Shown here: in pieces, positions 23,471 to 57,545 of the stretch | How positions within the stretch are numbered: the first letter of the stretch is position 1 | How the letters are laid out: each line of letters begins with the position of its first letter | Source: Naegleria gruberi | Lineage: Eukaryota | Length of the DNA stretch: 64,000 bases | Strand: one strand, 5' to 3' | NCBI GenBank assembly: GCA_000004985.1 | Contig: GG738853.1 | Notes under the pieces: model-generated | Told to the model about the DNA's origin: nothing | Database searches by the model: none | What the model saw: only the letters and a program-made list of their open reading frames with translations | Made by a program: the position numbers and the translations under genes

Positions 23471-23595
23471 ATTTGGTATTCCACACAAAAAAGAATTTAT
23501 TCGAAAGATTTTAAATAAAAAATGTGTCATCTTTGAATTATTCGAAAGTAGGAGTTCATCATATTCCGAAATATATTGAGTTTCTAACTAAAAAA

Positions 23596-42537: not shown

Positions 42538-45500
42538 ATGTATAATAGCAATACAACAAATGTTAGACCGATATCTAGCAGTATGGGTCCACCTCCCTTG
42601 AGTGCAAATAGTGCATCAAGAAGAACGATAGCTGCTACAACAGGTCCACCTCCTTTTAATCCTAATAATCGAGTTCCTACTGCTGTAGTAACAACACCAA
42701 TGCCGATGGTTAACGGTGGACAACCTCCTAATCCTTTCTTCAGACCTCCATATCCAAACAATCCACCAATACCTAATGGTATGATTCCGAATAATATGGG
42801 TGGATATATGCCACAACCAATGTGGTCACCAAACGTCCCTGTAACAAGTCCTAGTATGAGAAATCAACCACCTGTACAAAATAATTTTATGCCTGTTAAC
42901 AATAATAATACTTCAATGACACTATCTACTCCAAGTTCATCTGCATCAAGAAATAGAAGTGTATCAATTGGATCAGCACCTGTTCCAACTGGTGATCCGA
43001 ATGAAGCAAAATTATTTGATGAATTACTCACTACTTTCTATAGTGATCCAGTAAGAATTGATGAAATTTCTAGGATGGATTTATTTTGCATTAGAAGTGC
43101 TTTACCAAAAACAACTTTTGAAGAAATAGATATTTTCTCGAGCTATTTTGGACATGGATCTAGTGTGGATGCTTCTTCATTTGGAGCTAATTTATTATTG
43201 AATGATGATAATAATAATAATAACAATACAACACTTGACTATAATAATGGACAAAACTCTGTAATTTCCTCCTTACGACACGCAATTAGAAAATTATATT
43301 TGGAAGCTTTTCGTGATGATGACAAATTTTCTGCCTCTCTTCTTTCCTATCATTTACTTTTATATAAGAGATTGAAAATTTTGGAAAAGGTTCAGGAGTT
43401 TCAACATGGTAAAATGAATTCTACACAATCACTGAAAGTTCAATTTGAACAACTTCCTTCCAATAATGCTCTAAGTATTGCTGTTGATCATAATATTGAC
43501 AAACCAAGTACTTCTGTAATAGCTACATGTGCTCTTTCGAGTGTTCCTGTTAACACAACTGAAATGACCCAAGTTGCTGAGCATCAATATCAACCTCTTA
43601 AAAGGGAAGATTTGGATACTTTTACAAAGAATTTAATCAAAGCAATGCAAAAGAGCGATGTGAAAAAAGGTATTTTTGCCAAACTGAGGAAGTCGAAATC
43701 AGAATCAATTTACAAAATTATTACAAAGTATGCATATCCACTATGCTTACCACTGGAAATTTTAGATATTGAATCACTAAATCCAGTCAAACAATATTTG
43801 GTAGAATATTCATTGGATAAGGAAAATGGTTTGAAACGTAGAACAAAATCAATTCACTCCATGTTGCTTTTGGCTTTGAGTACTGGCTCTTTATTAGACA
43901 TGCTCCAAGTGTTACAATGCCTTCTTTCACTTTCCGAGAATCCTGACGATCCTCTCATTGATGCAGAGACTGAAGACGAAGGAAGCTTTGTAATGCGTGC
44001 CGAAACTCTAAAGCCACTACAACAATTCCAATATTTGATTAAGATGCATTTGGATCAATTAGAAAAGGACTCGAGTCATACACCTGGGAAAAACAATGAC
44101 TTACCTACGTATCTATTACCTCAACATATTTGGAACGACCCTAACTATTCTTTAATATCCTTCTCATCAAATGGTGTATCATTGAACTTTAATTGGAAGA
44201 AACCTTACCTGACCGCAAAGCGACTTTTCCTTTTTTTGCTTAACCAAATAGACATGTTAGCGACCCATTACTTGTACTGTGAATCATATAGCACAATTAA
44301 TTCTCAGGGAGATCTAGTCATAGAGCTGGGAGATTCAAAGAATATTAACTCACTTCTCAATCATAGAGAGAAGTTTTTGAAAAATAAGATTAGTGCAAAT
44401 ATCAAATTTTCTATCGAGTTGGGATCACCGAGAACCTTTTCGTCATTACTAGATATCATTGATAGCATGTTACAAATTCAAAATACCTCTAACAGTGAGC
44501 TTAATGGAGTTAAAAACTATTCCATTGCGGCACTTTTCAGAATATTGCACTTGAATGTGAAAGCATTGAGTTTGTGGAAAAAAGGAAGAGAGAACGTTAA
44601 TCAACTTGTGCAGCATCGTATGTCTAGCAGTACAGGTTATTCTAATGTAAATTTCATCGAGTCTATGAAGGGCTATTTCCTTGGGTTCCTCAAAGAAATT
44701 GACACTGATTTGGAAACTAATCAAGATGGACTCAAAAGTTTTGAAACCATCCACGAGGCCAAACCTAGTTCTCAATCAAGGTCAAAAGATCCAAACATCA
44801 AGGAACAACCAAAGAATCAACAAAAAACAACACAAGACCAAAAGAAGGATGTTACAACTAATCCTTTTATTCTGAACTTGTTCGGATCTACAGCAAAAGA
44901 GCCTGTTCAAGAAGAACAACAAACCAATTTTGACATCGAAGAGAATGACGATTTTGTTGTAATTTCAACAACACCTGGTCATCCAAATAATAGGGAACAA
45001 CCACCAACACCGGAGGAAGTTAAAAATGTTTCAAAGTATAGATCAATACTGGCAGCCTTGGCACCTCAAACTTTCATGTCTAAATTTATTTCTGAAAAGA
45101 TGTTGGACATACTAGTTACTGGATTTTCTATTTTCTACCCATCTCCCGAAGAGCAAAGATTTTTCTTAGAAGATTCAATAAGTATATTATCGAATGGTGG
45201 AAAATCGAACAGCACAAGCTTACTCTCTTCTTCTACAGAAGTTCCTTTAAGAAGAAACTTTTTAAAGAAGTTATTAGAACGATTGGTTAATGATTTTACT
45301 CTATTTGAAAAGTTGATTGCTAATGGTATTGGCATGTCTGATGTGAGTGTGGTGATCCCATTCACAGAAAAATTATTAGAATTTATCAAACGTCAAGAAC
45401 AATTCAAAATGGCAGAAGTTTTATCTAAACTCTCCAAGTTTACACCAGAAAAAGATATCAAACCAAATGATATTTACATGCATGAGGATTTGGAAATTAT

Positions 45501-48500
45501 TGCAAATCTTGTCAAACAACTGATGATAATGTGGCAAAACTTTTTATTCCATTATGTTCACTCAATTTTTAGTAAGAGTTCTGTTTCAAACAACAATGGT
45601 GTTGTAAATTCAATCTTGGGAACAAACACTGGAAAAGTCCTGTTTGAATACTCTAGACTTATTCTTAATCAAAGTGAAGAAGTTTTAAATGAAATGTGTA
45701 AAATCTCAGCTGAAATTATTGAAGTGAAATCAAAAGTTGACAAATCATCTGTTGATGAAGTTAATTCCCTATTAACGATTGGAATTTGTGAAGGTATTCT
45801 GCAAAAAGGCGCCACAGGGTGGTTATGTTTCCCTCTCTTGCTTAACTTTGCTAAATTCTTGTGGAAGGGTAGTATTCTTAGTAATTCTAAATCTGCAGCT
45901 GGAAATGTTGTTATAGAATCTCAATTAGAAAAGTTAACTCAATTTTTATATCCTCCTGTGGTTAATCTCTTGAGAATGATAGATTTGCTTTGTCAATTCT
46001 GTGATGTTCAAGAATTCAAATCTGAGGCCGAAAGGTTATTAATTGACTGGACTATTGTAGAAACTGAACATCCATATGATGGTAATGTTACTGATTGGAA
46101 AGAAGTTAATTTTATAGATCCTAACAATAACATTATCAATGTGGGTATCAAATTTGATCCTAGATGTATTACCTCTGGTCCTGAAGATCACCTTAGAATT
46201 AACTCTTTACAAAAAATTGCCAATCTTCAAGCTTTACAATTCTCAGGACATGGAACAACAATTCCAGTTAATCCTTTATTAACATGGGGAGCTGGCATGT
46301 CTTGCAGTTTCAAGAGCGGTAATTTTGCTCTTAATTCAAGTGAAGGAGGAAAACAAGGAAGCATGTGGGGAATGAGATGTCTTGTAGTACCAGTTAGAAG
46401 TTTCTCTGCACCTCCATTGTTTATGTACGAATTTTCTAAGTTATTAGGTCACATTGGTGGAAGATGCAGTACTTATTTGCTTTCAACCTATCCATACAGT
46501 AGTGATGAAGACAAGTACGTAGAATGGTTGGAAAGCAAGATATTTGCCAATGGAATCAAAGGAGAAATTGGACAACCTACAGAGCAAAACACAGAAAAAC
46601 AATCAAATAACAATAATAATGGTCTTTTGCTTCTAAGAATGGAGGAAGACTTCTCCAAGAATTCAATGATGTACCAACAAGCAAAGACAATAGCACCAGG
46701 CAAATTCGGTTCAAATCCATATGATCTCATCGAAAAAGTTGACGTAGATAGCTCTTCGAGTGACGTATTAGATGTTGCTGACAAATTCTTATTGGAAATG
46801 ATCGAACCAACATCAAATACCTCTGCTCCAATCAACTATTGCAATTACATGTATCAAAGAATTCTCAACAAGGAATCATTTACACAAATGATGCAACAAG
46901 TACCTGATGTTGTCTCTGCTGAAAGAGCAGTTATTGCAGCAGTTTTAAAGCATACAGGTTTGGACTCTCTAGCAAGAAAAGTTTCAGATGCTGTTGCTGA
47001 AAGCCCATTCCTTCTTTCTGAGAATGTTGATAAGGATTCATACGAAAAATCCATGTCCCTCTTGGATATTATGTTCAAGAATGGAGATTATGAAAAGTTG
47101 AAATTAATGTGGAGAAAAGTTGGAAGAACTCTAAGAGAGTGGATGATCAAAACCAAACAACAAAAGCAACTGTCTTACCGTGATATGAGAGACTTTATTG
47201 TTCAAAAGTGCAAATTCTTGATTTCTCTTGAGAGTGCATTTATGAGTACGGTCCCATTAGATGCCAGGGATATTGGTACTACAGAGAAGTCTTCTTTATT
47301 CAAGAAAGTACAAAGTCCAAGAGCTGTGGAGAAATCTTCATTATTTTCTCAACAACTTACACATAATTTTGTATTCAATCGTTTTAAGAAAGGAAATATT
47401 GGCGGTTTTACAAATATACTACCAAGTGATGATTTTGTTGGAGATATTTCTTCACAGATTGTCAAATTCATTCAAAGTGATATCATACCAGTAAGAATTC
47501 AAAACTTGATGAGAATGAGAAGTGAAAGAGCATTGAATAGAGCAACATCTCTTCAAATGTTTAGTGAACTTTTGCAAAGCACTCAATTTGCTAGTGTTAA
47601 AGCTGAAATTGTTCATGGTATTAAAGCTGTTAGACAAAACAGATCCATGAAGAAGATAGACTCACCAAACTTCCACTACTTCAACAATGTAGAGGGAAGT
47701 GGCCCAATGTATTCAGATATTTTGAGCTCAAGTCTTAGCGATTTCTTAAAGCAATTGTTCTACCCTCTGGATTCTTGCATTTCTACATCTTCACAAGAAG
47801 AAAAGGAAAAGCAACTAAGAGTCTTGGTTCAAAGTGGCTTGTTAAGAGAAATATTAGATATTTGCTTGATATCTTTCAAGCACAATGATATCAAATGGAT
47901 TATGCAATTTGATTTCTTAGAAAAGCTCTCCTACCTGATGTATAATACCATCTCAACTCCTGAACAGAACACTGATAAATTTAAAAGAAGGGATGGATTC
48001 ACAGAGGAACAGAAAGAAATCAATAAGAAATCTTGGAAGATATTCAGACTTTTATCTATCAGATGTGTGGAAATGTTGGAAGAAAATGCAATCACTGATC
48101 CAGTTGTAGAATCTCAGCTGAATGATTTGAGAGATACTGTCTTTAACTTGTTGTTCAAGGATTTGAAGAGAGTAATCGGCGATATGAATTCTGAAATTTC
48201 TTCAGAAGTTTTAGAAGAAATGCTTTCTCTCATGGTTTCTCTTTCTAACACACCATCAGCACAATCTTGTTTATCAAGCGAAAGATTCCAACAATTATTA
48301 TTACCACTGTTGAGATTAGAAAGCTATCCAAAGGTTCAAGAGTTATCGCTCAAATTATGTGGACAACTTATCACAAGCTATGGAGAGCTTTCTACTGATA
48401 ATAACTATAGTGAAGGTTTGAAAGAATTACTAACAATATTATTCGAGTTCTTGGGAGCCTATGAGACTAAACAAGTAACTGGCGACGCTTCTCTTGTCAA

Positions 48501-51500
48501 TGACAAAGATGGTAGTGGTTCTATTGGTATGAAAATGGCCAAAGATATCTTCAACTTGATAAGAAAATTATTCAGGGATATACCTGTTGATGATCATTCA
48601 TCTGCACCTTACTTTGTAGGAGTACTTACTTCATTAATGGATCAAGCTATTAATCTCTCAACACAAAATATAATACAGAGTATCAGGAAGGGAAAAACCT
48701 CTGTTTTGAAGGATATTCAATTGGTTTACTCCACTTTGACAGTCCTTAACGGATTTAATTGTGTTCCCCAAATTGGAGAAATTGTTAATGTAGATATGAA
48801 TGGCAGAGTTGAAAAAGCTAAAGTTAAAGAAATTGAGGAAACCTATCACTTGATCAAAATTGAACTATGTGACAAGACAGTCATTCACAGAGAACACTTT
48901 GTCTCTGCTGAGAATGTTAAGGTTGAAACCAACCAACCAATTGAAAAGTTTGACTTACAAAAGCAACATGTACACTCCTTATTCAAATTTATAACTGAGT
49001 TGGGAGTTATGGTGAATGGTACTGATTTAAGTTTAGATGACAAGATTCTATACTCTAATTTGTGGATGAGATCATTACGTTGGTTATTGGATGCTATTTC
49101 CATTCAAAATAACTATTCAACTATTGTTACAGAAACTTTACTTGGTGCCGATTCTGATTATGCTAATATGCTTGAAAAACTTGTTGGCCTTGGAGAAAAA
49201 TCAACTATTTACCAAACACTTGCTAATGAAACAAACAAGTCACTCATAACCTATGGTAAAGATCTTAAATTGGATTCTTGCAGTTTTACATTTACAGGAA
49301 AGAAATTCCACAAACAATACTACTATAGTTGCCAAACTTGCAGTATGAACACTAACCAAGCTGTTTGTGCATTCTGTGCCAGAACTTGCCATAGAGGACA
49401 TCGCTTGGGTACTTTGGAAGTTGGTGATTTCTATTGTGATTGCGGAGCTGGAGAAGCTGCAGCAAAGACACACGGAACATCTAATTGTAAGAGTTTAAGA
49501 AATGCATCCCCAGATCCAATTCTTACAACCGAAAGAATGGAAAGTGTAATGCTTCGTTTACAAAAATTAATGCCAATATCTTCCAAACGAAATCAAGCAG
49601 ATACACTTGATTTGGTACCGAACAGTCCAAATAGTAGTACTGCTTCACAAAACAATCAACCAGTTCAAAAAGGACCTTCCAAATTTGTGGTAACCAACAC
49701 TCTTGTACAAGATGGGGTACCATACACAATTAATAATGCTCCAGGAGAACTTCCACTCATCACTTTCAATCCAATGCGTTTGTACTCTCCAAAGCATTCT
49801 ATAATTGCTACAGACTTTTCAGTTCCAATGAGCTGGCCTGGTTTTTACTTTGAAGTAGAACTTGTGGATTGTGGAGAAAGTTTTGCAATTGGTTTTTCAT
49901 TACCATTTAATCCAACTAGTGCCATTACCTACAAGACAATCTTCTCTCAAACACAAAATATGTACACATGGCATACAGAAGCTGGTACTTTATACAAAGG
50001 AAATACTATTGTTAAAAACTCTTATCCAACTGCTTCAACAAAGGATGTCATTGGTTGTGGATTTATTAGAGAACAAAAAACTATTTTCTTTACTAAGAAT
50101 GGTGTAAATTTAGGACCTTCTTTCCAAAATGTTGATTTAATAACACTCAGTCCAATTATTGCTATGAAGGGAAAGAACGTACAAGCAAGAGTTAATGTTT
50201 CTATGATTAAGCCATTCCAATTTAACTTGCCAAGAAATTTCAAGTTGCTTGTTCCTGTATATTATGCTATTAACAATCCTACATCAGAAATTGTAGAAAC
50301 CAATCAACCACTGGGTAAGCCTTCTCAACCAGTTGTTCAAAATGAACTATCTGTCTTTGAAACCAGAGTCAAAGAATTGAAATCAGTTGTTAATGGACTT
50401 TACACTGAAGATGATATCAGAAGAGTGTTAACCTCTCTCAATAATATGGAAGGAAGTAATTTGAACATTCTTAACTTTGCTTTATCCATTTTACACAGAA
50501 ATATGCAACCTCAAGTTCAAGTCATTTCTAAAACAAATGCACCAACACAACCAGAGGCTGTTCCTGTTCTAAGATTACAATTGGTAGAACAAATGAAGTT
50601 GATGGGCTTTACTAATGATAAGGTTTGCTTGAAAGCTCTTCAACTTGCCAATGACGATATTAACTTGGCTTTGAACTATGTTTTCGAAGGTGTTGTTGTT
50701 GAAGATACACCTCCACTTATTCCTAATATGGCTTCTAGCAGCAGTATTAGCATTCCTTCTTCTATTGCTCCTCCTGCCAATCCTTTTGTTGATAGAGAAG
50801 AATTCATAAAGAAGAATGAAAAGAGTGTAAATGACATTTTACTCTTTGAAAATTCTGGTGTACCATTGCTTGGATCAGAATGTAACAACTCTGATATGAA
50901 ACAAAGATTATTGAAAGCTATGCTTCAAAACCCAGACATGAAAATTAACGAAAATAACTTTTGTGATTCTAATAATTTGAGAGAGGGCGATTTGGTTGTT
51001 GTTTCACCAAGAATTGTTGCTGTTGCTGATAATAACAGTGATTCTGGATATGATCTTTCTAGAAATAAGAAGACTGCTGCCCTGTCTAAACTTCGTGGTA
51101 AACTTGGCGTTGTATCTCGTAAGGTAACCTATGGCCCATACGTTATGGTAGCAGAGGAACAAGGTGCTGGATCTATTGTTACAGATTTGGTTGAATCCAA
51201 GAATGTCTACACAGCTCCACACGAGCTCAAAGGAATTACCATCAATGATGTTCCTGCAAAATGTTTAGAATTCTATATGGCTTTATCATCAACCTATATC
51301 AGAACAACAATTTTGAAAGCTTTGATAAAGGCATCAGAGATGAAAAATTTCAAAATGGATCTACCAAAGACCTTTTCAACAAAGAAGAATCTCATGAAAG
51401 GATTGAAGCTAACTTTGATAGATTCCTATCACCACTTGGATACCGATTATAACTTTATTTCTTCATATACCAATAATGTTATTCTTGAAAAGTCCGTAGA

Positions 51501-54500
51501 CTATGATAATAATTATACATTTGCCAATAAGACATTACCTGCTATAGAACATTTTGAATCTTGGAAGAATATGGAAATTACTAATTCTGAAAACAAAGCT
51601 TCTGACATTTTCTTGGAAATTGAAGAAGAAGCACTCAATGATCTAAATGCTTATACTCTTGGACTTAATAACTATAGAAAATATGATTATAGAAAAGATA
51701 TGAATGTATTGCACCAACAACCTACACCTTACAAGCAACATTTTATTCAATTTTATGGTGCCACTTCTATTGCTATTATTTTGGGAGAAAAATTTGAATT
51801 ACCAACAACATTGGACTGTCTTACATTCTATTTTGATAGAAATGGTAAGAAAGTTGCATTGCAAATCAAGGGAGGTACTCCAGTTCAAGACAGATGTCTC
51901 ATCATCACAACAAATAATTACAATTATTTCAACCAAACAGAACCTTTTGCCAATCAAGCACAACTATACTTTGAATTTACTGGACCAAGCGTAAGAGAAA
52001 ACAATGGTGTTACCTTCTATGCAGCTCCTTACACTACAAAATTATCTCAAAGGGATGCCTTCCTTCAACCAAATATGCTCCTCTCTTCTTTAGTATTGAA
52101 GTACTCAGCCATCAGTAGAAAATCAAGAAAAGTTGATTTTACTGCAGCTCTTTACTTCCCAATCATGGGAAGATACCTGTTAACACCATTTGCTCCTTTC
52201 AAGGGTATTGTAGCTGATGCTCTTTGTCAATTAGACTATAGCAGTCCAGTTATTTTCAATTCTCACATAGATCCAATGTCTCACACTGGTATAAGGGATA
52301 GTATTGTTAAAAGTGGTCCAGCTTATGCTCACTTGTCATTATTGAAGAGGTTTAGAGTTGAATTGGAAGATTTATACAGAAAATATTTGAGATATAATGA
52401 AACTTCACCTCATGCCCTCCATAATTTCCACGCTCTGACTGAATTTATGACTGTCGTAAGAAAATACCTTGTTAGTGACTTGTGTCAATCCATGTTCCCA
52501 AGTGCCTCAAGCAGTTTATCTAATTTACCAACTAACCTTGCAAATATATTAGACAAACATCACATGTACAGTTGTAAGTTAGATCAACAACATTATGGAA
52601 GAACAGTTGAAAGAGAAACCCTGGCATGTACCAGTTGTACTCATAGTGTTGCTAAGCAGTTATCCATGTACGAAACAAAACCTTCCTCTTCTTTTGCCAA
52701 ATATTTTGCTAATGAATCCACCAAATGTCAATCCCAGGTTGCTATGGAGTTCCAAATCAAGTATGATCACGAAAACTCATGTAATGTAGCAACAAGTATT
52801 GTTCCAATAGGAACTACAAGTGAATCCGTTTCAAAACTTTTCTCTAAGGAAGATAACTTGTTACAAGTTAACCCATCAGATTGGTTTGAACATGTATCTT
52901 GGGTTGACCAACTCACAATTATTAGAGAATTTTTGGAAACATTCACATCTAATAATGGTAGAACCTTCCCAGAATGGACCTTGTTTGAATCGATTCTTGA
53001 GAAGAGAAAGAAGGTCTGTTACAAGGAAAGCAAACATCCATACTCTGTTGTTAATGACTCTGATAAGATTAAGATTCCTGGAGCCAAGACCCTCTACATT
53101 ACCTTTGATAAACACAGTAAGACTCACAAGTGTGATCGACTGCTCTTTAGTACTAAGAAGGCAGGCTCTGACGACTTGGGATCTTTCGGTGGAGATGAGT
53201 TGAAAGACAAAACTATTGTTGTACATGGTACAGACTCTGTTTACTATGATTTCACTTGTGGTGGAGGTGATCATGACGTTAAATGCTCTGGATGTAGATC
53301 TAATATTTCTGGAGTTCGTTATCACTGTGTCGAATGTGAGGAGTATGACCTTTGTGAAAAATGTGTTTCCAAGCAAGGAAGAGTTCACTCTGATTTGCAC
53401 TTGTTCCTTAAAATTAGAAGGCCAGTTGATTGTATGCCTGCTATGATTCCTTCACTTTATACTCCAAGATGGAGGTCTACCTCTCAATTCAAAGGAAATA
53501 TTCACGTTGGAGTTAAATGTGACAATTGTGGTGTAAATCCAATCAAGGGTATTCGTTATTGGTGTGAAAATTGTGAAAACTTCAACCTTTGTGAAAAGTG
53601 CGCTGACACTGAGTTCAAATACCATGATAGAATGCACATTTTCTTGCGTGTTGTTAGACCTTTACCACCAAAGAATCAAATGCCTGCCAATGCTCTTCCA
53701 TATGGTCTCGTTTATGAGAAAGATATGGATTCTCACTGGGGTTATATGTTTAGCGTTTCTTCCTCTATTGAAGCTTGCCCTAGAATATCACAAGTCCAAA
53801 ATGAGATTGATGAAATAAGATCTTTAATGAAGATTGGAAAGGATAATCAACCTATTGGGGAAGACGATGTAGATCCTGTCGAGTTTGACAAGCAACTACT
53901 CGAATATGTTGAAACATATAGCAACGGATGGCAATCATTAGAATGGAATCAACTCTCACCAAAGAAAGAAGAATTAACTAATTTACCGCTACTTGATAGA
54001 GTCCCTCTCAACAGACTTAGATATAGATTCGTTCTTCTCAAACTTTTCAACAGAAGAATTTCACGAGTTATCAATATTTTAGATTTTACAAATACTTCAA
54101 ATATTGAGAGAATGAATGACTCAAGAGCTGTAACTATTACAGACATGATTAGTCAACAATTGAGAGATAGAATTTTCTATTCTGTAAAGATGGATGCTTG
54201 GCAACATACTATCATGAAGTCTCATGTAACAGTTGATCCTATCCATTTGAAGCTCAATAGACATTTGGCCTCTGAAATGCACCCAACAGATAGACAAAGA
54301 AATGCCTTCAATTCTCTCTTTATTCAAGCTTTCAACCAAGTTAAATCTATGCATCCAAAGATTTTGAGCAGAAAACAAGCCTCATGGAAGGTAACATTGA
54401 TTGGCGAAGCAGCTGATGACTATGGTGGACCTTTCAGAGAGTCTTTATCAAACATGTGCCAAGAATTGATTGCTAATGATCCTTCTGTTTTGGATTTATT

Positions 54501-55479
54501 CATCCCAACTCCTAACAAGGTTTCTGGACAAGGTGATAACAGGGACAAGTTTGTTCCAACTCCAAAGAGCACAAGTGATCAACATCTCAAGTGGTATGAA
54601 TTTGTAGGAATGTTAATGGGTATTGGTATTCTTACGAAGAACGTTTTGCCATTCGATTATCCTTCCTTAATTTGGAAAAGTCTTGTTAATGAAAAGATTG
54701 GTTGGACTGATTTGAGATCCTTTGATGAAGAAATTTACAATGCCATGAAATCAATACTTGAACTTGGAGATGTAGACGATTCAGATTATGAATTGAAATC
54801 AATTATGGAAGACAGTTTCTCTCAGACCTACTATGGAAGAATGCTTACCACAATGGGAAGCGACGGCAAAGAAGTAGAGCTTGTACCAAATGGTACTAAT
54901 ATTGAACTTTCCTATAATAATAGAAAACAATATGCAAACTTGATCTATGATTACCGATTAACTAAAGAGTTTAATTCCCAATTGAATGCCATCAGAAAAG
55001 GACTGTTCAACATGCTCACTAACAGATACTTTAGTCTCTTCTCTTGGCATGAACTGGAAAGAAACGTGTGTGGTATTCCTGATGTAGATGTTGAAAAATT
55101 GAAGCAACACACAATTTATGAAGGATACACAATCCAAAGTAGAGAAATCAAGCACTTCTGGGAAATTATGCAAGCATTCAGTCCAGAACAGCGCTCACTT
55201 TTCCTCAAATTCGTCTGGGGTAGAGGTAGAATGCCTTACAATGAGAGTGAGGCCTTCTCCAATCCAATGAAGATTCAAAAACTTGATAGACCAAATCCTG
55301 ACATTGTCTTGCCACTTTCGCACACTTGTTTCTTCTCTATTGAGTTGCCATCCTACTCTACAAAGGAAATTATGAAAGAAAAACTCTTGTATGCCATCAT
55401 CAACTGTAAAGCTATTGATATTGATTTTACTACAAGCGCAATAGAAGCTCAGAATTATTCTATTGCTGTAAGAAGATAA
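42538..55479 (+). CDS. giant HECT-domain E3 ubiquitin ligase (4313 aa) with UBR-box, SPRY-like, UBA and two ZZ zinc-finger modules
   Basis: Single uninterrupted 12,942-nt ORF from ATG 42538. The N-terminus is P/N-rich low complexity. A UBR-box-type finger lies at ~49.28-49.47 kb (CSFTFTGKKFHKQYYYSCQTCS...CAFCARTCHRGHRL...FYCDCG). A SPRY/B30.2-like segment lies at ~49.8-50.2 kb (WPGFYFEVELV...IGCGFI...TIFFTKNG). A UBA domain lies at ~50.57-50.69 kb (LVEQMKLMGFTNDKVCLKALQLANDDINLALNYVFEG). Two ZZ fingers are present (CSGCRSNISGVRYHCVECEEYDLCEKC at ~53.28-53.42 kb and CDNCGVNPIKGIRYWCENCENFNLCEKC at ~53.51-53.65 kb). The C-terminal HECT domain has the catalytic Cys in ...LPLSHTCFFSIELPSY... (~54.4-55.48 kb). 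Confidence 0.9.
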   Translation: MYNSNTTNVRPISSSMGPPPLSANSASRRTIAATTGPPPFNPNNRVPTAVVTTPMPMVNGGQPPNPFFRPPYPNNPPIPNGMIPNNMGGYMPQPMWSPNVPVTSPSMRNQPPVQNNFMPVNNNNTSMTLSTPSSSASRNRSVSIGSAPVPTGDPNEAKLFDELLTTFYSDPVRIDEISRMDLFCIRSALPKTTFEEIDIFSSYFGHGSSVDASSFGANLLLNDDNNNNNNTTLDYNNGQNSVISSLRHAIRKLYLEAFRDDDKFSASLLSYHLLLYKRLKILEKVQEFQHGKMNSTQSLKVQFEQLPSNNALSIAVDHNIDKPSTSVIATCALSSVPVNTTEMTQVAEHQYQPLKREDLDTFTKNLIKAMQKSDVKKGIFAKLRKSKSESIYKIITKYAYPLCLPLEILDIESLNPVKQYLVEYSLDKENGLKRRTKSIHSMLLLALSTGSLLDMLQVLQCLLSLSENPDDPLIDAETEDEGSFVMRAETLKPLQQFQYLIKMHLDQLEKDSSHTPGKNNDLPTYLLPQHIWNDPNYSLISFSSNGVSLNFNWKKPYLTAKRLFLFLLNQIDMLATHYLYCESYSTINSQGDLVIELGDSKNINSLLNHREKFLKNKISANIKFSIELGSPRTFSSLLDIIDSMLQIQNTSNSELNGVKNYSIAALFRILHLNVKALSLWKKGRENVNQLVQHRMSSSTGYSNVNFIESMKGYFLGFLKEIDTDLETNQDGLKSFETIHEAKPSSQSRSKDPNIKEQPKNQQKTTQDQKKDVTTNPFILNLFGSTAKEPVQEEQQTNFDIEENDDFVVISTTPGHPNNREQPPTPEEVKNVSKYRSILAALAPQTFMSKFISEKMLDILVTGFSIFYPSPEEQRFFLEDSISILSNGGKSNSTSLLSSSTEVPLRRNFLKKLLERLVNDFTLFEKLIANGIGMSDVSVVIPFTEKLLEFIKRQEQFKMAEVLSKLSKFTPEKDIKPNDIYMHEDLEIIANLVKQLMIMWQNFLFHYVHSIFSKSSVSNNNGVVNSILGTNTGKVLFEYSRLILNQSEEVLNEMCKISAEIIEVKSKVDKSSVDEVNSLLTIGICEGILQKGATGWLCFPLLLNFAKFLWKGSILSNSKSAAGNVVIESQLEKLTQFLYPPVVNLLRMIDLLCQFCDVQEFKSEAERLLIDWTIVETEHPYDGNVTDWKEVNFIDPNNNIINVGIKFDPRCITSGPEDHLRINSLQKIANLQALQFSGHGTTIPVNPLLTWGAGMSCSFKSGNFALNSSEGGKQGSMWGMRCLVVPVRSFSAPPLFMYEFSKLLGHIGGRCSTYLLSTYPYSSDEDKYVEWLESKIFANGIKGEIGQPTEQNTEKQSNNNNNGLLLLRMEEDFSKNSMMYQQAKTIAPGKFGSNPYDLIEKVDVDSSSSDVLDVADKFLLEMIEPTSNTSAPINYCNYMYQRILNKESFTQMMQQVPDVVSAERAVIAAVLKHTGLDSLARKVSDAVAESPFLLSENVDKDSYEKSMSLLDIMFKNGDYEKLKLMWRKVGRTLREWMIKTKQQKQLSYRDMRDFIVQKCKFLISLESAFMSTVPLDARDIGTTEKSSLFKKVQSPRAVEKSSLFSQQLTHNFVFNRFKKGNIGGFTNILPSDDFVGDISSQIVKFIQSDIIPVRIQNLMRMRSERALNRATSLQMFSELLQSTQFASVKAEIVHGIKAVRQNRSMKKIDSPNFHYFNNVEGSGPMYSDILSSSLSDFLKQLFYPLDSCISTSSQEEKEKQLRVLVQSGLLREILDICLISFKHNDIKWIMQFDFLEKLSYLMYNTISTPEQNTDKFKRRDGFTEEQKEINKKSWKIFRLLSIRCVEMLEENAITDPVVESQLNDLRDTVFNLLFKDLKRVIGDMNSEISSEVLEEMLSLMVSLSNTPSAQSCLSSERFQQLLLPLLRLESYPKVQELSLKLCGQLITSYGELSTDNNYSEGLKELLTILFEFLGAYETKQVTGDASLVNDKDGSGSIGMKMAKDIFNLIRKLFRDIPVDDHSSAPYFVGVLTSLMDQAINLSTQNIIQSIRKGKTSVLKDIQLVYSTLTVLNGFNCVPQIGEIVNVDMNGRVEKAKVKEIEETYHLIKIELCDKTVIHREHFVSAENVKVETNQPIEKFDLQKQHVHSLFKFITELGVMVNGTDLSLDDKILYSNLWMRSLRWLLDAISIQNNYSTIVTETLLGADSDYANMLEKLVGLGEKSTIYQTLANETNKSLITYGKDLKLDSCSFTFTGKKFHKQYYYSCQTCSMNTNQAVCAFCARTCHRGHRLGTLEVGDFYCDCGAGEAAAKTHGTSNCKSLRNASPDPILTTERMESVMLRLQKLMPISSKRNQADTLDLVPNSPNSSTASQNNQPVQKGPSKFVVTNTLVQDGVPYTINNAPGELPLITFNPMRLYSPKHSIIATDFSVPMSWPGFYFEVELVDCGESFAIGFSLPFNPTSAITYKTIFSQTQNMYTWHTEAGTLYKGNTIVKNSYPTASTKDVIGCGFIREQKTIFFTKNGVNLGPSFQNVDLITLSPIIAMKGKNVQARVNVSMIKPFQFNLPRNFKLLVPVYYAINNPTSEIVETNQPLGKPSQPVVQNELSVFETRVKELKSVVNGLYTEDDIRRVLTSLNNMEGSNLNILNFALSILHRNMQPQVQVISKTNAPTQPEAVPVLRLQLVEQMKLMGFTNDKVCLKALQLANDDINLALNYVFEGVVVEDTPPLIPNMASSSSISIPSSIAPPANPFVDREEFIKKNEKSVNDILLFENSGVPLLGSECNNSDMKQRLLKAMLQNPDMKINENNFCDSNNLREGDLVVVSPRIVAVADNNSDSGYDLSRNKKTAALSKLRGKLGVVSRKVTYGPYVMVAEEQGAGSIVTDLVESKNVYTAPHELKGITINDVPAKCLEFYMALSSTYIRTTILKALIKASEMKNFKMDLPKTFSTKKNLMKGLKLTLIDSYHHLDTDYNFISSYTNNVILEKSVDYDNNYTFANKTLPAIEHFESWKNMEITNSENKASDIFLEIEEEALNDLNAYTLGLNNYRKYDYRKDMNVLHQQPTPYKQHFIQFYGATSIAIILGEKFELPTTLDCLTFYFDRNGKKVALQIKGGTPVQDRCLIITTNNYNYFNQTEPFANQAQLYFEFTGPSVRENNGVTFYAAPYTTKLSQRDAFLQPNMLLSSLVLKYSAISRKSRKVDFTAALYFPIMGRYLLTPFAPFKGIVADALCQLDYSSPVIFNSHIDPMSHTGIRDSIVKSGPAYAHLSLLKRFRVELEDLYRKYLRYNETSPHALHNFHALTEFMTVVRKYLVSDLCQSMFPSASSSLSNLPTNLANILDKHHMYSCKLDQQHYGRTVERETLACTSCTHSVAKQLSMYETKPSSSFAKYFANESTKCQSQVAMEFQIKYDHENSCNVATSIVPIGTTSESVSKLFSKEDNLLQVNPSDWFEHVSWVDQLTIIREFLETFTSNNGRTFPEWTLFESILEKRKKVCYKESKHPYSVVNDSDKIKIPGAKTLYITFDKHSKTHKCDRLLFSTKKAGSDDLGSFGGDELKDKTIVVHGTDSVYYDFTCGGGDHDVKCSGCRSNISGVRYHCVECEEYDLCEKCVSKQGRVHSDLHLFLKIRRPVDCMPAMIPSLYTPRWRSTSQFKGNIHVGVKCDNCGVNPIKGIRYWCENCENFNLCEKCADTEFKYHDRMHIFLRVVRPLPPKNQMPANALPYGLVYEKDMDSHWGYMFSVSSSIEACPRISQVQNEIDEIRSLMKIGKDNQPIGEDDVDPVEFDKQLLEYVETYSNGWQSLEWNQLSPKKEELTNLPLLDRVPLNRLRYRFVLLKLFNRRISRVINILDFTNTSNIERMNDSRAVTITDMISQQLRDRIFYSVKMDAWQHTIMKSHVTVDPIHLKLNRHLASEMHPTDRQRNAFNSLFIQAFNQVKSMHPKILSRKQASWKVTLIGEAADDYGGPFRESLSNMCQELIANDPSVLDLFIPTPNKVSGQGDNRDKFVPTPKSTSDQHLKWYEFVGMLMGIGILTKNVLPFDYPSLIWKSLVNEKIGWTDLRSFDEEIYNAMKSILELGDVDDSDYELKSIMEDSFSQTYYGRMLTTMGSDGKEVELVPNGTNIELSYNNRKQYANLIYDYRLTKEFNSQLNAIRKGLFNMLTNRYFSLFSWHELERNVCGIPDVDVEKLKQHTIYEGYTIQSREIKHFWEIMQAFSPEQRSLFLKFVWGRGRMPYNESEAFSNPMKIQKLDRPNPDIVLPLSHTCFFSIELPSYSTKEIMKEKLLYAIINCKAIDIDFTTSAIEAQNYSIAVRR

Positions 55480-55734
55480 TTATTTCAATAAAACTGAATA
55501 ATCTTCAAAGCAATTAATGCCAATTCATTATTTTGTTTATATCAAAGAAGGAAAACTGAAAGGAAACCTCAGTGCTTGCTTTGAAGACTTAAAACTCACC
55601 AGTAATGCTACTGGAATGACAAAAACCTCCTTGAAATATTAGAATTGTTACAAATAAGTGATTCTATTTTTTCACATTTCCAAATTGGTATTCACCAAAG
55701 CATAAATTTTTTCAATCAAAAAAAATACGCGAAA

Positions 55735-56220
55735 ATGAGCAGCAAGAATACTGTCTTTAAGAAAATTATTATTGGTTGTGACCACGGAGCAGTTGATTTG
55801 AAGAATCAAACTGTGAATTATATTAAATCGGTTTACGGAAGTAAGCTTGACAATTTTTTCGATTTTGGTGTTCATACTGAAGATAGAGTTGACTATCCAG
55901 ATATTGCTCATGAAGTTTGCAAACGTATTCAATCAAATGAATATGATGGAGGTATTTTGTTGTGCGGAACTGGTGTTGGTATTTCAATTGCTGCTAACAA
56001 ACATGAAGGAATTAGAGCAGGACTTTGTCACGATGATTACACTGCTGAAATGATTAGAAAACACAATAATTGTAATATTCTCGCTTTCGGAGGTAGAACA
56101 ACAGGTATTGAAATTGCTAAAAGAATGGTTGATATTTTCCTTACCACTGAATTTGAAGGTGGAAGACATGCTGAAAGAGTTGACAAGTTGAAAATTACTT
56201 CATGTTGCGAAAGTAAATAA
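55735..56220 (+). CDS. rpiB: ribose-5-phosphate isomerase B (RpiB/LacAB family)
   Basis: The track ORF starts at TTG 55645 and the first ATG is 55735 (MSSKNTVFKKIIIGCDHGAVDLK...). It aligns throughout with E. coli RpiB: IGCDHGA, VDYPDIAHEV, DGGILLCGTGVGISIAANKHEGIRAGLCHDDYTAEMIRKHNNCNILAFGGRTTGIEIAKRMVDIFLTTEFEGGRHAERV. Confidence 0.9.
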   Translation: MSSKNTVFKKIIIGCDHGAVDLKNQTVNYIKSVYGSKLDNFFDFGVHTEDRVDYPDIAHEVCKRIQSNEYDGGILLCGTGVGISIAANKHEGIRAGLCHDDYTAEMIRKHNNCNILAFGGRTTGIEIAKRMVDIFLTTEFEGGRHAERVDKLKITSCCESK

Positions 56221-56243: not shown

Positions 56244-57545
56244 TTACAAAACTGGTGTATCGTGTAAGGCACAACAAACTACTGCTTTTGCATGTCCCTT
56301 ATATTCTTTGATATATTCTCCTCTATTACAATCCCAAAGTTTAGCTGTCAAATCTGAGCTTGCTGTCACTAAATATGAAGAATCAGAATTGTAAGTACAA
56401 TCCCAAACCCATTTCTTATGTCCATTAAGAGTCTTTTGAAGTCTACATTGACTAGATAAATCCCACAATCTAACAGTGGAATCTGAACTACAAGTAGCAA
56501 GTTGTGTACAGTTTGGAGCAATTTTACATTTAAGAATATAATGATTAAAGTGAGCATTGAATTGATAGATCAATCGTATGACACCATCTTCAGTAATTGT
56601 ACAAGTTTGCTCATTATTGGTTGTTGTCTTTGGAGTTGGGAATATTGATGGTGTTGCTGGTTGTACCATATCATGTAATTGGGCTCCAATATTGATACCA
56701 CTCATTGATGAGGTCAATGGTGTTGTACTACCAAAGTCAGAGAATGATTTTGAAGAAGATAAAAGTGGCTTTGATGATGTAACAAAATTCTTCTCAGCAC
56801 TAAAACCATATGATTCCCAAATACTATTCTCTGTTTCTTCATAGCACTTGTAGTGATAAATATATACATTTCCCTTTTGATTGGCAACAGCAATTGTTCT
56901 TCCATCTTGACTAACATCTACACTTCTAATAGGAGTTCCTTTACATACACAAATCTTGTAGGCACACTTGTCTTCGGTCAAGTCCCAAATTCGCAAATAT
57001 CCCTTCTGATCACCAGCAATTAATTCTACTTGATTTGGATGTAAAACAACAGAATTAACGTGATTATTACTTGCTCTAATACCTTTAGAACTCTTCTTTT
57101 TACGTTGTTGTTTACCTGATGATCCACATACTGAATATTCTCTCTGACAAGTAAAAGTACGTAAATCCCAAACTCTCACCGTTCCATCTTCTCCAGCACT
57201 GTACATCCACTTGTCTTCCTGTTGAAATCCAATAGCTAGAATATTTGCAGTGTGTCCTTCTAAACTACCAACAAGTGGTAATTGTTGTTGCTGTTGTTGT
57301 TGTGGTTGGGATCTACTACTCGACTTCATGGTTCTTCCTCTTGGTGGATCACTTGTAGCCAATTGAAAGAGACGAATATGATTGTGAGAGGCAGCAGCCA
57401 ATAAATGTTTGTTGTGGGAAATACAGAGAGCATTTACTTGTGGATCCGTATAATTGATGGTGTGAGAGCAAACATTTGTGGTTGGTTCCCACAAGCGAAT
57501 GGTCTTATCGTAGGAGGCTGTACAGAGAATAACTCCTTGTGGCAT
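56244..57545 (-). CDS. lst8: LST8 (GbetaL) WD40-repeat subunit of TOR complexes, with lineage-specific insertions
   Basis: ATG at 57545-57543 and 433 aa. It is collinear with LST8 from N- to C-terminus (VILCTASYDKTIRLWEPTTNVCSHTI...QVNALCI vs [26 protein letters not shown]...QVNALEV; C-terminal ...EYKGHAKAVVCCALHD vs ...EYGGHQKAVVCLAFND). There are seven WD40 blades. Inserted are a poly-Q tract (QPQQQQQQQLP), a basic KQQRKKKSSK insert and a ~60-aa S/T-rich loop. Confidence 0.9.
   Translation of the reverse strand: MPQGVILCTASYDKTIRLWEPTTNVCSHTINYTDPQVNALCISHNKHLLAAASHNHIRLFQLATSDPPRGRTMKSSSRSQPQQQQQQQLPLVGSLEGHTANILAIGFQQEDKWMYSAGEDGTVRVWDLRTFTCQREYSVCGSSGKQQRKKKSSKGIRASNNHVNSVVLHPNQVELIAGDQKGYLRIWDLTEDKCAYKICVCKGTPIRSVDVSQDGRTIAVANQKGNVYIYHYKCYEETENSIWESYGFSAEKNFVTSSKPLLSSSKSFSDFGSTTPLTSSMSGINIGAQLHDMVQPATPSIFPTPKTTTNNEQTCTITEDGVIRLIYQFNAHFNHYILKCKIAPNCTQLATCSSDSTVRLWDLSSQCRLQKTLNGHKKWVWDCTYNSDSSYLVTASSDLTAKLWDCNRGEYIKEYKGHAKAVVCCALHDTPVL

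What the first reader, a model, noticed from the sequence alone, without database searches (positions are those of the whole stretch)
42538..55479. 4313-aa single-exon HECT ligase combining UBR-box, SPRY, UBA and double ZZ modules
I recognise the individual modules, but not this combination. UBR-box plus UBA plus HECT recalls UBR5/EDD. ZZ fingers with HECT recall HERC2. SPRY is typical of other ligase families. A segment around 48.75-48.93 kb (GEIVNVDMNGRVEKAKVKEIEETYHLIKIELCDKTVIHREHF) looks like a small SH3-like barrel such as CPH-type modules, but I cannot confirm that. The 12.9-kb ORF has no intron and an N-terminal ~150-aa P/N-rich low-complexity region.
Basis: partly seen in the sequence, partly recalled or inferred. 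Interest (0 to 1): 0.55.

Follow-up and report, generated by a model that had tools for sequence, protein, structure and literature searches.

The report
Giant multi-reader HECT ligase of Naegleria
The 12.9-kb open reading frame is a real gene of the amoeboflagellate Naegleria gruberi, already deposited as a "ubiquitin protein ligase"; it belongs to an unnamed family of giant ubiquitin ligases in Naegleria's relatives, which is unusual but not a new kind of system.

Summary
The ORF at 42538-55479 (+) is real and encodes 4313 aa. It is residue-for-residue identical to Naegleria gruberi XP_002680426.1 / UniProt D2V5N7, "ubiquitin protein ligase". The organism is therefore a heterolobosean, not an amoebozoan.

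Pfam confirms HECT, two ZZ fingers, SPRY and a UBR box above the curated cut-offs. UBA falls below the cut-off here, but it sits at the same position in every orthologue.

The same colinear architecture occurs in Acrasis kona, Pharyngomonas kirbyi, an N. fowleri fragment and several environmental sequences, so this is a conserved family.

It is not an orthologue of UBR5, HERC2 or HECTD1. The catalytic end is closest to HECTD3, including about 100 residues ahead of the canonical HECT domain. The UBR box is UBR4-type, the SPRY is RanBP9/10-type, and ZZ2 is closest to the HERC2 ZZ.

I add three CUB-like beta-sandwiches. One is supported by fold search. The third appears to carry the ZZ pair as an insertion.

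The CPH/SH3-like suggestion could not be supported.

The likely function is a thioester-forming E3 that reads substrate N-termini and ubiquitin. That function is inferred, not shown.

Verdict: a public gene with an undescribed architecture, and modest interest.

The parts
42538..55479 (+). Complete single-exon gene for the 4313-aa HECT ubiquitin ligase (N. gruberi XP_002680426.1 / D2V5N7); the end coordinate includes the stop codon.
   Evidence: ORF list and translation. Exact identity to P0012 and its accessions.
42538..42987 (+). N-terminal Pro/Asn/Ser-rich low-complexity region, aa 1-150. Not conserved in orthologues.
   Evidence: Composition. Mostly gaps against Acrasis.
42988..46032 (+). 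Conserved N-terminal region with no recognised domain, aa 151-1165. Presumed scaffold (inferred).
   Evidence: No Pfam hit at E<=10. Colinear with Acrasis and P0013, E 8.5e-72 and 1.6e-50.
46045..46413 (+). CUB-like domain 1, aa ~1170-1292 (ETEHPY...FDPRC...WGMRC.V.PV).
   Evidence: Conserved block. Profile-profile match to CUB-like 2 with P 2.9e-5 and to CUB-like 3 with P 5.8e-4. The fold is inferred from domain 2.
46414..48738 (+). Conserved middle region with no recognised domain, aa 1293-2067.
   Evidence: phmmer hits to P0013 (7e-107), Acrasis (4.5e-88) and P0016 (5e-40). No significant Pfam hit: the best hits are far below their cut-offs, E 0.03-0.9.
48739..48933 (+). Small conserved module of unknown fold, aa 2068-2132.
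   Evidence: Conserved across five family members. No Pfam or PDB match. The fold was not tested structurally.
49279..49491 (+). UBR box of the UBR4 subtype, aa 2248-2318.
   Evidence: Pfam zf-UBR. PDB: UBR4 3.4e-15, FBXO11 2.6e-9, UBR5 5.6e-5, UBR1/2 about 3e-3. All Cys/His aligned to Cys/His of UBR4 are kept. F2257 and Y2299 correspond to UBR4 F1671 and F1713.
49843..50193 (+). SPRY domain, aa 2436-2552.
   Evidence: Pfam SPRY, 43.6 bits. Closest solved SPRYs are RanBP10 and RanBP9 at 3e-7, then SPRYD3, Vid30/Gid1 and HERC1.
50581..50688 (+). UBA domain, aa 2682-2717.
   Evidence: Pfam UBA, E 0.002, below the cut-off. Orthologous positions hit UBA or UBA_7 at up to 44 bits.
50980..51207 (+). 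Second small conserved module of unknown fold, aa ~2815-2890.
   Evidence: Family alignment. No Pfam hit. No detectable relation to the first small module.
51733..52041 (+). CUB-like domain 2, aa ~3066-3168.
53020..53271 (+). CUB-like domain 3, N-terminal part, aa ~3495-3578 (ESKHPY...ITFDKHSKTHKCDRLLF...).
   Evidence: 54-62% identical to Acrasis. Profile match to CUB-like 2 with P 1.4e-5, probability 80%.
53272..53433 (+). ZZ finger 1, aa 3579-3632.
   Evidence: Pfam ZZ. PDB hits to p62 and Nbr1 ZZ domains. Pocket residues are S3584, E3602 and D3604, against HERC2 D2709, D2728 and D2730.
53506..53667 (+). ZZ finger 2, aa 3657-3710.
   Evidence: Pfam ZZ. Closest solved domain is the HERC2 ZZ at 8e-10, followed by Nbr1 (S. 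pombe, a two-finger hit), ZZZ3 and PRT1. Pocket residues are D3662, N3681 and N3683.
53701..53760 (+). Putative closing strand of CUB-like domain 3 after the ZZ pair, aa ~3722-3741 (YGLVYEKDMDSHWGYMFSVS).
   Evidence: Nearly invariant in seven sequences. It matches the WG[MY]..V.P end of domains 1 and 2. The insertion topology is inferred, because the direct model was too poor to show it.
53965..54498 (+). Pre-HECT region and start of the N-lobe shared with HECTD3, aa ~3810-3987.
   Evidence: Family profile positions 307-776 align to HECTD3 residues 389-860 of 864, E 1.2e-80.
54499..55410 (+). HECT domain, aa 3988-4291. Catalytic Cys4264 lies in LPLSHTCFF (nt 55327-55329).
   Evidence: Pfam HECT, 1.6e-71. 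The catalytic motif is invariant in the family.
55411..55476 (+). C-terminal tail, aa 4292-4313 (AIDIDFTTSAIEAQNYSIAVRR). The AID.D motif is shared with HECTD3.
   Evidence: Tail alignment. HECTD3 alignment ends at ...AIDTDMS.

Best explanation
This is the Naegleria gruberi gene for a giant, catalytically competent HECT-type E3 ubiquitin ligase. It belongs to a conserved but unnamed heterolobosean family.

Shown here:
- The gene is one unbroken ORF.
- The domain order, conserved in all full-length relatives, is: conserved N-terminal region, CUB-like 1, conserved middle region, small module, UBR box, SPRY, UBA, small module, CUB-like 2, CUB-like 3 with two ZZ fingers, a HECTD3-like pre-HECT segment, and HECT.
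- The catalytic cysteine motif is invariant.

Inferred:
- As in other HECT enzymes, ubiquitin passes from an E2 to Cys4264 as a thioester and then to a substrate lysine.
- Substrates are chosen by the reader modules in the middle and C-terminal part of the protein.
- The UBR4-type UBR box keeps the aromatic pair that binds N-terminal Arg or aromatic residues in UBR4. It probably reads free N-termini.
- ZZ1 keeps two of the three acidic pocket residues, so it may also bind an N-terminus.
- ZZ2 has an invariant Asn at the position of HERC2 D2730, where mutation to alanine abolishes binding. It is probably not a canonical Arg/H3 N-terminus reader.
- The SPRY and CUB-like domains would give further protein contacts.
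- The UBA would bind ubiquitin, which suits chain extension on substrates that are already ubiquitylated.

Evolutionarily it is a class I HECT in the sense of Grau-Bove 2013. Its catalytic module is closest to HECTD3.
For: Identity and reality:
- The translation equals XP_002680426.1 / D2V5N7.
- The Acrasis kona ORF L001:1319-12463 aligns colinearly over 4286 columns at 33% identity.
- A Pharyngomonas transcript-derived protein marked as a complete ORF (P0025), Logan proteins P0013 and P0016, and metagenome ORFs L002 and L003 carry the same Pfam set in the same order.
- An N. fowleri fragment is 87% identical.

Catalysis:
- HECT scores 1.6e-71.
- LP.SHTCFFS.ELP.Y is invariant.

Class:
- HECTD3 is the best solved match: 183 bits against about 130 for the next, and 275 against 206 with the family profile.
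- The profile alignment starts about 100 residues before the canonical HECT domain.
- SPRY is the class I signature domain (PMC3673628).

Readers:
- The UBR box is closest to UBR4, with F2257 and Y2299 at the positions of UBR4 F1671 and F1713 (PMC10687169).
- ZZ2 is closest to the HERC2 ZZ. Pocket residues were compared with D2709, D2728 and D2730 (PMC9001736).
Against: - No biochemical or expression data exist for this protein or any family member. A search for its accessions found no paper.
- N-terminus reading is inferred only from homology of the modules.
- Neither ZZ finger keeps the full acidic triad of HERC2 or p62.
- The UBR4 box itself binds its test peptides weakly: KD 385-626 uM for YIFS and RIFS, though 46 uM is reported for a better peptide.
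- The CUB model has only moderate confidence (pLDDT 62).
- The model of the CUB3/ZZ region failed (pLDDT 43), so the insertion topology is not shown.
- Class I placement rests on score ranking against solved structures. The HERC1, HERC2 and HECTD4 HECT domains were not among the solved-structure matches, and no tree was built.
Confidence: 0.6

Rival explanations
1. It is an orthologue of a well-described animal ligase (UBR5/EDD, HERC2 or HECTD1) that has diverged in a protist.
For: It shares UBA, UBR box and HECT with UBR5, and ZZ and HECT with HERC2. ZZ2 is closest to the HERC2 ZZ.
Against: - The UBR5 HECT scores 98 bits against 183 for HECTD3.
- The UBR5 UBR box scores 5.6e-5 against 3.4e-15 for UBR4.
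- No PABP/MLLE, RCC1, Cyt-b5, MIB_HERC2, APC10, Cul7/CPH or ankyrin hit appears in this protein or any orthologue, at E<=1 for the full protein and E<=10 for the unassigned fragments.
- A genuine RLD-bearing giant HECT, L025, is readily recognised by the same scan.
Confidence: 0.04
2. It is mainly a chain-extending (E4-like) quality-control ligase. The UBA recruits proteins that are already ubiquitylated. The UBR and ZZ zinc modules serve structural or partner-binding roles, not N-degron reading.
For: - The UBA is conserved at the same site in all members and duplicated in P0016 and L002.
- Neither ZZ finger has the complete acidic pocket.
- The closest UBR box belongs to UBR4, which is described as an E4 quality-control ligase (PMC7618180, abstract seen).
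Against: - The aromatic pair and the CDC aspartate of the UBR4 N-degron site are conserved across the family.
- ZZ1 keeps an invariant Asp at the HERC2 D2730 position.
- The two roles do not exclude each other.
Confidence: 0.25
3. The giant ORF is an annotation or assembly artefact that fuses two or more neighbouring genes.
For: The ORF is unusually long (12.9 kb). In Acrasis kona only the last 819 aa are annotated, as a partial protein.
Against: - There are unbroken colinear ORFs of 3513-3795 aa on independent contigs: Acrasis L001, L002 and L003.
- A Pharyngomonas transcriptome ORF marked complete carries all the domains.
- Conservation runs along the whole length with no break.
Confidence: 0.02

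Closest known systems
HECTD3 (human; solved structures 9r85, 9r8t, 9r94)
   Same: It is the best-matching catalytic module. The alignment covers HECTD3 residues 389-860, that is, the helical segment before HECT plus the whole HECT domain. It ends in the shared ...C.AID.D motif. In both proteins a beta-sandwich domain sits immediately upstream of that segment.
   Different: HECTD3 is 864 aa (the solved chain), and Grau-Bove et al. describe the animal HECTD3 proteins as bearing an APC10/DOC domain. No APC10 hit is found here. This protein is five times longer and adds a UBR box, SPRY, UBA, three CUB-like domains and two ZZ fingers.
Class I HECT ligases of Grau-Bove et al. 2013 (HERC1, HERC2, KIAA0614/HECTD4, HECTD3, HECTEx1, and an unclassified Thecamonas trahens clade)
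   Same: It has the SPRY domain said to be exclusive to this class and a HECTD3-like HECT. The Thecamonas clade is reported to carry SPRY, ZZ and zf-UBR (PMC3673628).
   Different: The excavate family named there, HECTEx1, is defined by Laminin_G3 plus SPRY, and no Laminin_G_3 hit is found here. The paper describes excavates as HECT-poor with little domain diversification. Orthology with the Thecamonas proteins could not be tested, and none appeared among the best 150 matches to the middle region.
UBR4 / BIG (with KCMF1: the UBR4 complex)
   Same: The UBR box is of the UBR4 subtype at about 50% identity. The aromatic residues that bind the first residue of the N-degron are kept. As in the UBR4-KCMF1 complex, a UBR box and ZZ fingers are combined in one giant ligase.
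   Different: UBR4 uses a hemiRING module, not HECT (PMC10873205, abstract), and its ZZ finger is supplied by a separate subunit, KCMF1 (named in the PMC7618180 abstract; KCMF1 chains hit by the ZZ region). There is no similarity outside the UBR box. UBR4 K1708 is replaced by Glu (E2294).
HERC2
   Same: ZZ2 is closest to the HERC2 ZZ (8e-10). In both proteins a ZZ finger lies next to a beta-sandwich domain upstream of a class I HECT (PMC9001736).
   Different: It has no RCC1-like, Cyt-b5, MIB/HERC2, CPH or DOC domain. ZZ2 has Asn at both the D2728 and D2730 positions.
UBR5 / EDD
   Same: It contains UBA, a UBR box and HECT in the same order.
   Different: It has no MLLE/PABC domain. Its HECT and UBR box are both much closer to other families. 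UBR5 belongs to class IV in PMC3673628.

Membership tests
HECT E3 ubiquitin ligases | A C-terminal HECT domain above the Pfam cut-off | tested here: met
   PF00632, 241.9 bits against a cut-off of 23.9, aa 3988-4291.
HECT E3 ubiquitin ligases | A catalytic cysteine in the C-lobe motif | tested here: met
   Cys4264 lies in LPLSHTCFFSIELPSY. The motif is invariant in seven family sequences and aligned with the HECTD3 motif.
HECT E3 ubiquitin ligases | Formation of a ubiquitin thioester and transfer to substrate | not testable with these tools
   This needs an in vitro E1/E2/E3 assay.
Class I HECT (Grau-Bove 2013) / HECTD3-like catalytic module | HECT domain groups with HECTD3, HERC1, HERC2 and HECTD4, not with NEDD4, HUWE1, E6AP or UBR5 | tested here: inconclusive
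   HECTD3 is clearly the best solved match (275 against 206 bits, with the alignment extending before HECT). The HERC1, HERC2 and HECTD4 HECT domains were not among the solved-structure matches, and no tree was built.
Class I HECT (Grau-Bove 2013) / HECTD3-like catalytic module | Presence of a SPRY domain (class-specific accessory domain) | tested here: met
   PF00622, 43.6 bits. It is present in all full-length orthologues, though below the Pfam cut-off in P0016 at 20 bits.
HECTD3 family proper | An APC10/DOC domain N-terminal to HECT | tested here: not met
   No PF03256 hit in the full protein at E<=1 or in the fragments at E<=10. The family profile aligns to HECTD3 only from residue 389 onward.
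UBR5/EDD | An MLLE/PABC domain, plus HECT and UBR box closest to UBR5 | tested here: not met
   No PABP hit. UBR5 HECT scores 98 bits against 183 for HECTD3. UBR5 UBR box scores 5.6e-5 against 3.4e-15 for UBR4.
HERC2 / large HERCs | RCC1-like domains (RLD) | tested here: not met
   No RCC1 or WD40_RLD hit in this protein or its orthologues. The same scan finds the RLD in L025.
UBR-box N-recognins | A UBR box with the zinc-binding Cys/His pattern | tested here: met
   PF02207, 33.8 bits. All Cys/His aligned with Cys/His of the UBR4 box are conserved in five family members.
UBR-box N-recognins | Binding of destabilising N-terminal residues | not testable with these tools
   Only indirect evidence is available. 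F2257 and Y2299 occupy the positions of UBR4 F1671 and F1713, and D2301 lies in the CDC motif.
N-terminus-binding ZZ domains (p62, HERC2 type) | An acidic triad equivalent to HERC2 D2709, D2728 and D2730 | tested here: not met
   ZZ1 has S3584, E3602 and D3604. ZZ2 has D3662, N3681 and N3683. Across the family the third position is an invariant Asp in ZZ1; in ZZ2 it is Asn in all members except Pharyngomonas, which has Val. Each finger has only a partial pocket.
CPH domain (CUL7, PARC, HERC2) | Sequence match of aa 2068-2132 to the CPH/Cul7 family | tested here: not met
   No Pfam hit at E<=10. A five-sequence profile gives no PDB hit better than E 0.05, and none to CUL7, PARC or HERC2. The fold itself was not tested.
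CUB domain fold | A beta-sandwich superimposable on solved CUB domains | tested here: met

The most novel reading that the evidence does not exclude
The family could be an ancient 'all-in-one' N-terminus-reading ligase. It joins on one HECT polypeptide a UBR4-type UBR box, ZZ fingers, a RanBP9-type SPRY and a UBA. In animals these readers are spread over separate systems: UBR4-KCMF1, p62/HERC2 and CTLH. If the SPRY/ZZ/zf-UBR class I HECTs of Thecamonas are true orthologues, the architecture would predate the split of Discoba and Apusomonadida. It would then be near-LECA in age and lost in most lineages, not assembled independently as the 2013 survey proposed. The ZZ pair inserted into a CUB-like sandwich would be a reader arrangement I have not seen described elsewhere.
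Probability: 0.2. Interest if true: 0.55.

Novelty: new variant of a known kind. Interest (0 to 1): 0.3.

Why it matters
- HECT ligases and each of the reader modules are well known, and the sequence has long been public. The finding therefore does not open a new category.
- Its value is descriptive. It defines a conserved heterolobosean family of giant class I HECT ligases whose domain set is not that of any named family.
- It adds three intracellular CUB-like domains that sequence scans do not detect.
- It shows that the 2013 picture of excavates as having little HECT domain diversification is incomplete.
- Naegleria fowleri carries an orthologue, so the family is also present in a human pathogen.
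- If the readers do bind N-termini, the protein would be a compact model for how UBR and ZZ readers cooperate on one ligase.

Tried and rejected
- A full-length homologue search timed out.
- The exact-sequence contig look-up found nothing for the protein or for its WD40 neighbour, although the protein is in the collection.
- A word-index search with the middle 1001 aa returned only UBR-box and SPRY hits.
- Pfam on eight unassigned fragments at E<=10 gave nothing meaningful. NCBIfam gave nothing.
- Profile searches of CUB-like 1, the 'SH3-like' module and CUB-like 2 against PDB sequences gave no significant hit.
- Two-sequence hhalign of the internal repeats was not significant. Seven-sequence profiles were needed.
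- The first AlphaFold2 model, aa 3440-3760 with four sequences, was too poor to use (pLDDT 43). The proposed insertion of the ZZ pair into CUB-like 3 therefore rests on sequence pattern only.
- The afdb50 fold library was unavailable, so I could not ask which other eukaryotic proteins carry the same CUB-like domain.
- I recalled from memory that ZZEF1 has CUB domains and two ZZ fingers. I could not check this: the paper search brought nothing usable.
- The UBR5, HERC2 and HECTD1 orthologue readings were rejected because their defining domains are absent.
- The gene-fusion artefact reading was rejected because independent contigs carry unbroken colinear ORFs.
- tRNA and Rfam scans of the window were empty.
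Full report
**Observation.** The window carries one ORF at 42538..55479 on the + strand. It starts with ATG and encodes 4313 aa.

A Pfam scan of the whole protein gives:
- HECT, aa 3988-4291, E 1.6e-71.
- Two ZZ fingers, 51 bits.
- SPRY, aa 2436-2552, 43.6 bits.
- zf-UBR, aa 2248-2318, 33.8 bits.
- UBA, aa 2682-2714, 18.4 bits, below the cut-off of 22.4.

The first 150 residues are 21% Pro, 15% Asn and 13% Ser, against 4.8%, 7.0% and 9.6% overall. The UBA call is weak in this sequence alone but is rescued by orthologues, as described below.

**Identity of the gene and the organism.** An exhaustive HMMER search with aa 2040-3239 returned a 4313-aa protein at 100% identity.

That protein equals my translation residue for residue. 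It is EFC47682.1 / XP_002680426.1 / UniProt D2V5N7, "ubiquitin protein ligase" of Naegleria gruberi NEG-M.

The single-exon reading agrees with the deposited gene model.

The neighbours are ordinary, mostly intronless Naegleria genes:
- a DIS3-like RNB exonuclease at 36555-40106;
- a TPR protein at 40113-42047 (-);
- an RpiB isomerase at 55645-56220;
- a WD40 protein at 56244-57545 (-).

No paper in the held library cites the accessions.

**A conserved family.** The closest named hit to the C-terminal 854 aa was a "partial" 819-aa protein of Acrasis kona. Its genomic locus holds one unbroken ORF of 3714 aa, L001:1319-12463. That ORF aligns colinearly with the Naegleria protein over 4286 columns at 33% identity. 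It carries zf-UBR, SPRY, UBA_7, two ZZ fingers and HECT in the same order.

The same set and order is found in:
- Pharyngomonas kirbyi P0025, 3503 aa, from a transcriptome ORF marked complete;
- two proteins from public sequencing runs, P0013 (3588 aa) and P0016 (3014 aa);
- two metagenome ORFs, L002 (3795 aa) and L003 (3513 aa; L003 was not scanned with Pfam but is near-identical to L002).

A Naegleria fowleri fragment is 87% identical.

UBA or UBA_7 hits lie after SPRY in every full-length member scanned. They reach 44 bits in L002 and 40.6 bits in P0016, where the UBA is duplicated. Conservation runs along the whole length except the N-terminal low-complexity stretch.

This rules out a fused-gene artefact. 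It shows a family that includes Pharyngomonas, which I understand to be the deepest heterolobosean branch (background knowledge, not tested here).

No member from a named organism outside Heterolobosea turned up. However, the word-index searches are of limited sensitivity, and the environmental members have no taxonomy.

**What the modules resemble.**

*HECT.* The best solved relative is HECTD3, at 183 bits against about 130 for ITCH, NEDD4L and HUWE1, and 98 for UBR5. With a seven-sequence family profile the gap widens to 275 against 206 bits. The alignment then runs from HECTD3 residue 389 to 860 of 864. It therefore includes about 100 residues ahead of the canonical HECT domain and the shared C-terminal ...C.AID.D motif. 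The catalytic motif LPLSHTCFF, with Cys4264, is invariant.

*UBR box.* It is closest to UBR4 (3.4e-15), then FBXO11 (2.6e-9), UBR5 (5.6e-5) and UBR1/2 (about 3e-3). I mapped the published UBR4 site (PMC10687169) onto the alignment:
- UBR4 F1671 and F1713, which stack on the first residue of the N-degron, correspond to F2257 and Y2299. These positions are aromatic in all five aligned members.
- The Asp of the CDC motif is kept.
- UBR4 K1708, which sets charge selectivity for the second residue, is Glu here (E2294).

*SPRY.* It is closest to RanBP10 and RanBP9 (3e-7), then SPRYD3, Vid30/Gid1 and HERC1.

*ZZ2.* It is closest to the HERC2 ZZ (8e-10). ZZ1 is closest to the p62 and Nbr1 ZZ domains.

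*The ZZ acidic pocket.* In HERC2 the pocket is D2709, D2728 and D2730. D2709A and D2730A each abolish binding of the histone H3 peptide and of an Arg N-terminal peptide (PMC9001736).
- ZZ1 reads S3584, E3602, D3604. The last position is an invariant Asp in the family.
- ZZ2 reads D3662, N3681, N3683. The last position is Asn in all members except Pharyngomonas, which has Val.

Neither finger has the full triad. From memory, the N-D-D pattern of ZZ1 in the orthologues resembles the p300 ZZ, which binds the H3 N-terminus. I did not verify this here.

Three blocks share one pattern: E[ST]xHPY or its equivalent, then a strand ending in F(D), then D.L.F, a Gly-rich turn, and a final WG[MY]x.x[VA].P. 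They lie at aa ~1170-1292, ~3066-3168 and ~3495-3578.

Pfam finds nothing there, even at E<=10. Profiles find nothing in PDB sequences either.

Seven-sequence profile comparisons link the three blocks:

| Pair | P-value | Probability |
|---|---|---|
| Domain 1 vs domain 2 | 2.9e-5 | 74% |
| Domain 2 vs domain 3 | 1.4e-5 | 80% |
| Domain 1 vs domain 3 | 5.8e-4 | 29% |

I therefore call all three CUB-like. Domain 2 is supported by structure. Domains 1 and 3 are supported by inference.

In domain 3 the closing WGYMFSV strand (aa 3733-3739) comes only after the two ZZ fingers, and the whole segment is the most conserved non-catalytic part of the protein at 54-76% identity to Acrasis. This suggests the ZZ pair is inserted in a loop of the sandwich. 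The direct model of this region was too poor to show it (pLDDT 43).

**The SH3/CPH suggestion.** The quoted peptide lies at aa 2080-2121, inside a module (aa 2068-2132) that is conserved in all five aligned members. It has no Pfam hit at E<=10. A five-sequence profile finds nothing in PDB sequences (best E 0.05, unrelated proteins).

It is therefore not a detectable CPH domain. A second small conserved module at aa ~2815-2890 is equally unassigned and shows no relation to the first.

**How it most likely works.**

Shown:
- a complete HECT domain with its catalytic cysteine;
- a fixed order of reader modules conserved across the family.

Inferred from the established HECT mechanism:
- an E2 charged with ubiquitin docks on the N-lobe;
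- ubiquitin moves to Cys4264 as a thioester and then to a substrate lysine.

Inferred from module homology:
- The UBR box probably binds free N-termini with Arg or aromatic first residues, like UBR4's. A Glu at the K1708 position would tolerate or favour a basic second residue.
- ZZ1 may bind another class of N-terminus.
- ZZ2, whose third pocket position is Asn or Val rather than Asp in every member, is probably not a canonical reader.
- SPRY and the CUB-like domains would add protein contacts.
- The UBA would bind ubiquitin, which suits chain extension on substrates that are already marked.

The main rival is that the protein is chiefly an E4-type quality-control ligase, with the zinc modules serving structural roles. 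The two readings are compatible.

**Comparison with what is known.** It is not UBR5. It has no MLLE domain, and its HECT and UBR box are closer to other families. It is not HERC2, because it has no RLD, Cyt-b5, MIB/HERC2, CPH or DOC domain. It is not HECTD1, because it has no ankyrin or MIB domain. The same scan recognises an RLD readily in L025, a different giant HECT.

It fits class I of Grau-Bove et al. 2013, which comprises HERC1, HERC2, KIAA0614/HECTD4, HECTD3 and lineage-specific families. SPRY is the signature domain of that class (PMC3673628).

That paper reports an unclassified Thecamonas trahens class I clade with SPRY, ZZ and zf-UBR. It interprets these as independent acquisitions and describes excavates as HECT-poor with little domain diversification. 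The excavate family it names, HECTEx1, is defined by Laminin_G3 plus SPRY, which does not match this protein.

The combination is therefore not unprecedented among class I HECTs. The heterolobosean family as such, its CUB-like domains and its HECTD3-type catalytic end appear to be undescribed.

**Verdict.** This is a real, already deposited gene. It is a HECT E3 of an unnamed, conserved heterolobosean family with an unusual but not unprecedented set of readers. I rate it a new variant of a known kind, with modest interest (0.3). The function is inferred only.

Noticed in passing
L001:1319-12463 (Acrasis kona JAOPGA020001632.1): The Acrasis orthologue is annotated only as an 819-aa 'partial' hypothetical protein (AKO1_009425). 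The locus holds one unbroken 3714-aa ORF with the full UBR-SPRY-UBA-ZZ-ZZ-HECT architecture, so the gene is under-annotated.
   Followed up: yes
L025:8-11770 (metagenome contig Ga0105053_10002931): A different giant single-ORF HECT ligase of 3920 aa. It carries an RCC1-like domain, SH3, a Vps62-like region, PDZ, SPRY, UBA and HECT. It matches the family profile from before the HECT domain. It looks like a large-HERC-like class I ligase of an unknown protist.
   Followed up: partly
I do not know of a described poly-UBR-box protein.
   Followed up: partly
P0021 and its cluster (hits): An 1824-aa protein with an N-terminal protein kinase domain followed by eight SPRY domains. One source labels it a serine/threonine protein kinase.
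   Followed up: no
window 16920-19127 (-): A 735-aa ORF that fuses a DNA_pol_A-type 3'-5' exonuclease domain to a SpoIIIAA-like AAA ATPase.
   Followed up: no
window 55645-56220 (+), 60903-61757 (+), 23524-25020 (+): Three genes of types I know mainly from bacteria sit among ordinary eukaryotic genes: an RpiB-type ribose-5-phosphate isomerase immediately downstream of the ligase, a PhoPQ-activated pathogenicity-related protein homologue, and a UDP-GlcNAc 2-epimerase.
   Followed up: no
L002 and L003 (contigs JAESGV010000717.1 and JAESGV010000792.1): Two near-identical full-length family members of 3795 and 3513 aa lie on separate contigs of one assembly. They could be alleles, recent paralogues or two closely related strains.
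   Followed up: partly
window 52876-53400 (-): A 174-aa antisense ORF with a GTG start lies inside the ligase gene, opposite the CUB3/ZZ1 coding region. It is most likely a chance ORF.
   Followed up: no
window 55411-55476 (aa 4292-4313) and orthologues: The family has a conserved extension after the end of the HECT domain (DFTT.A.EARN...). The catalytic Cys therefore lies 49 residues from the C-terminus, further than I recall for HECT enzymes such as NEDD4 or E6AP. Its effect on the C-terminal residues that I recall being important for ubiquitin transfer is unknown.
   Followed up: partly
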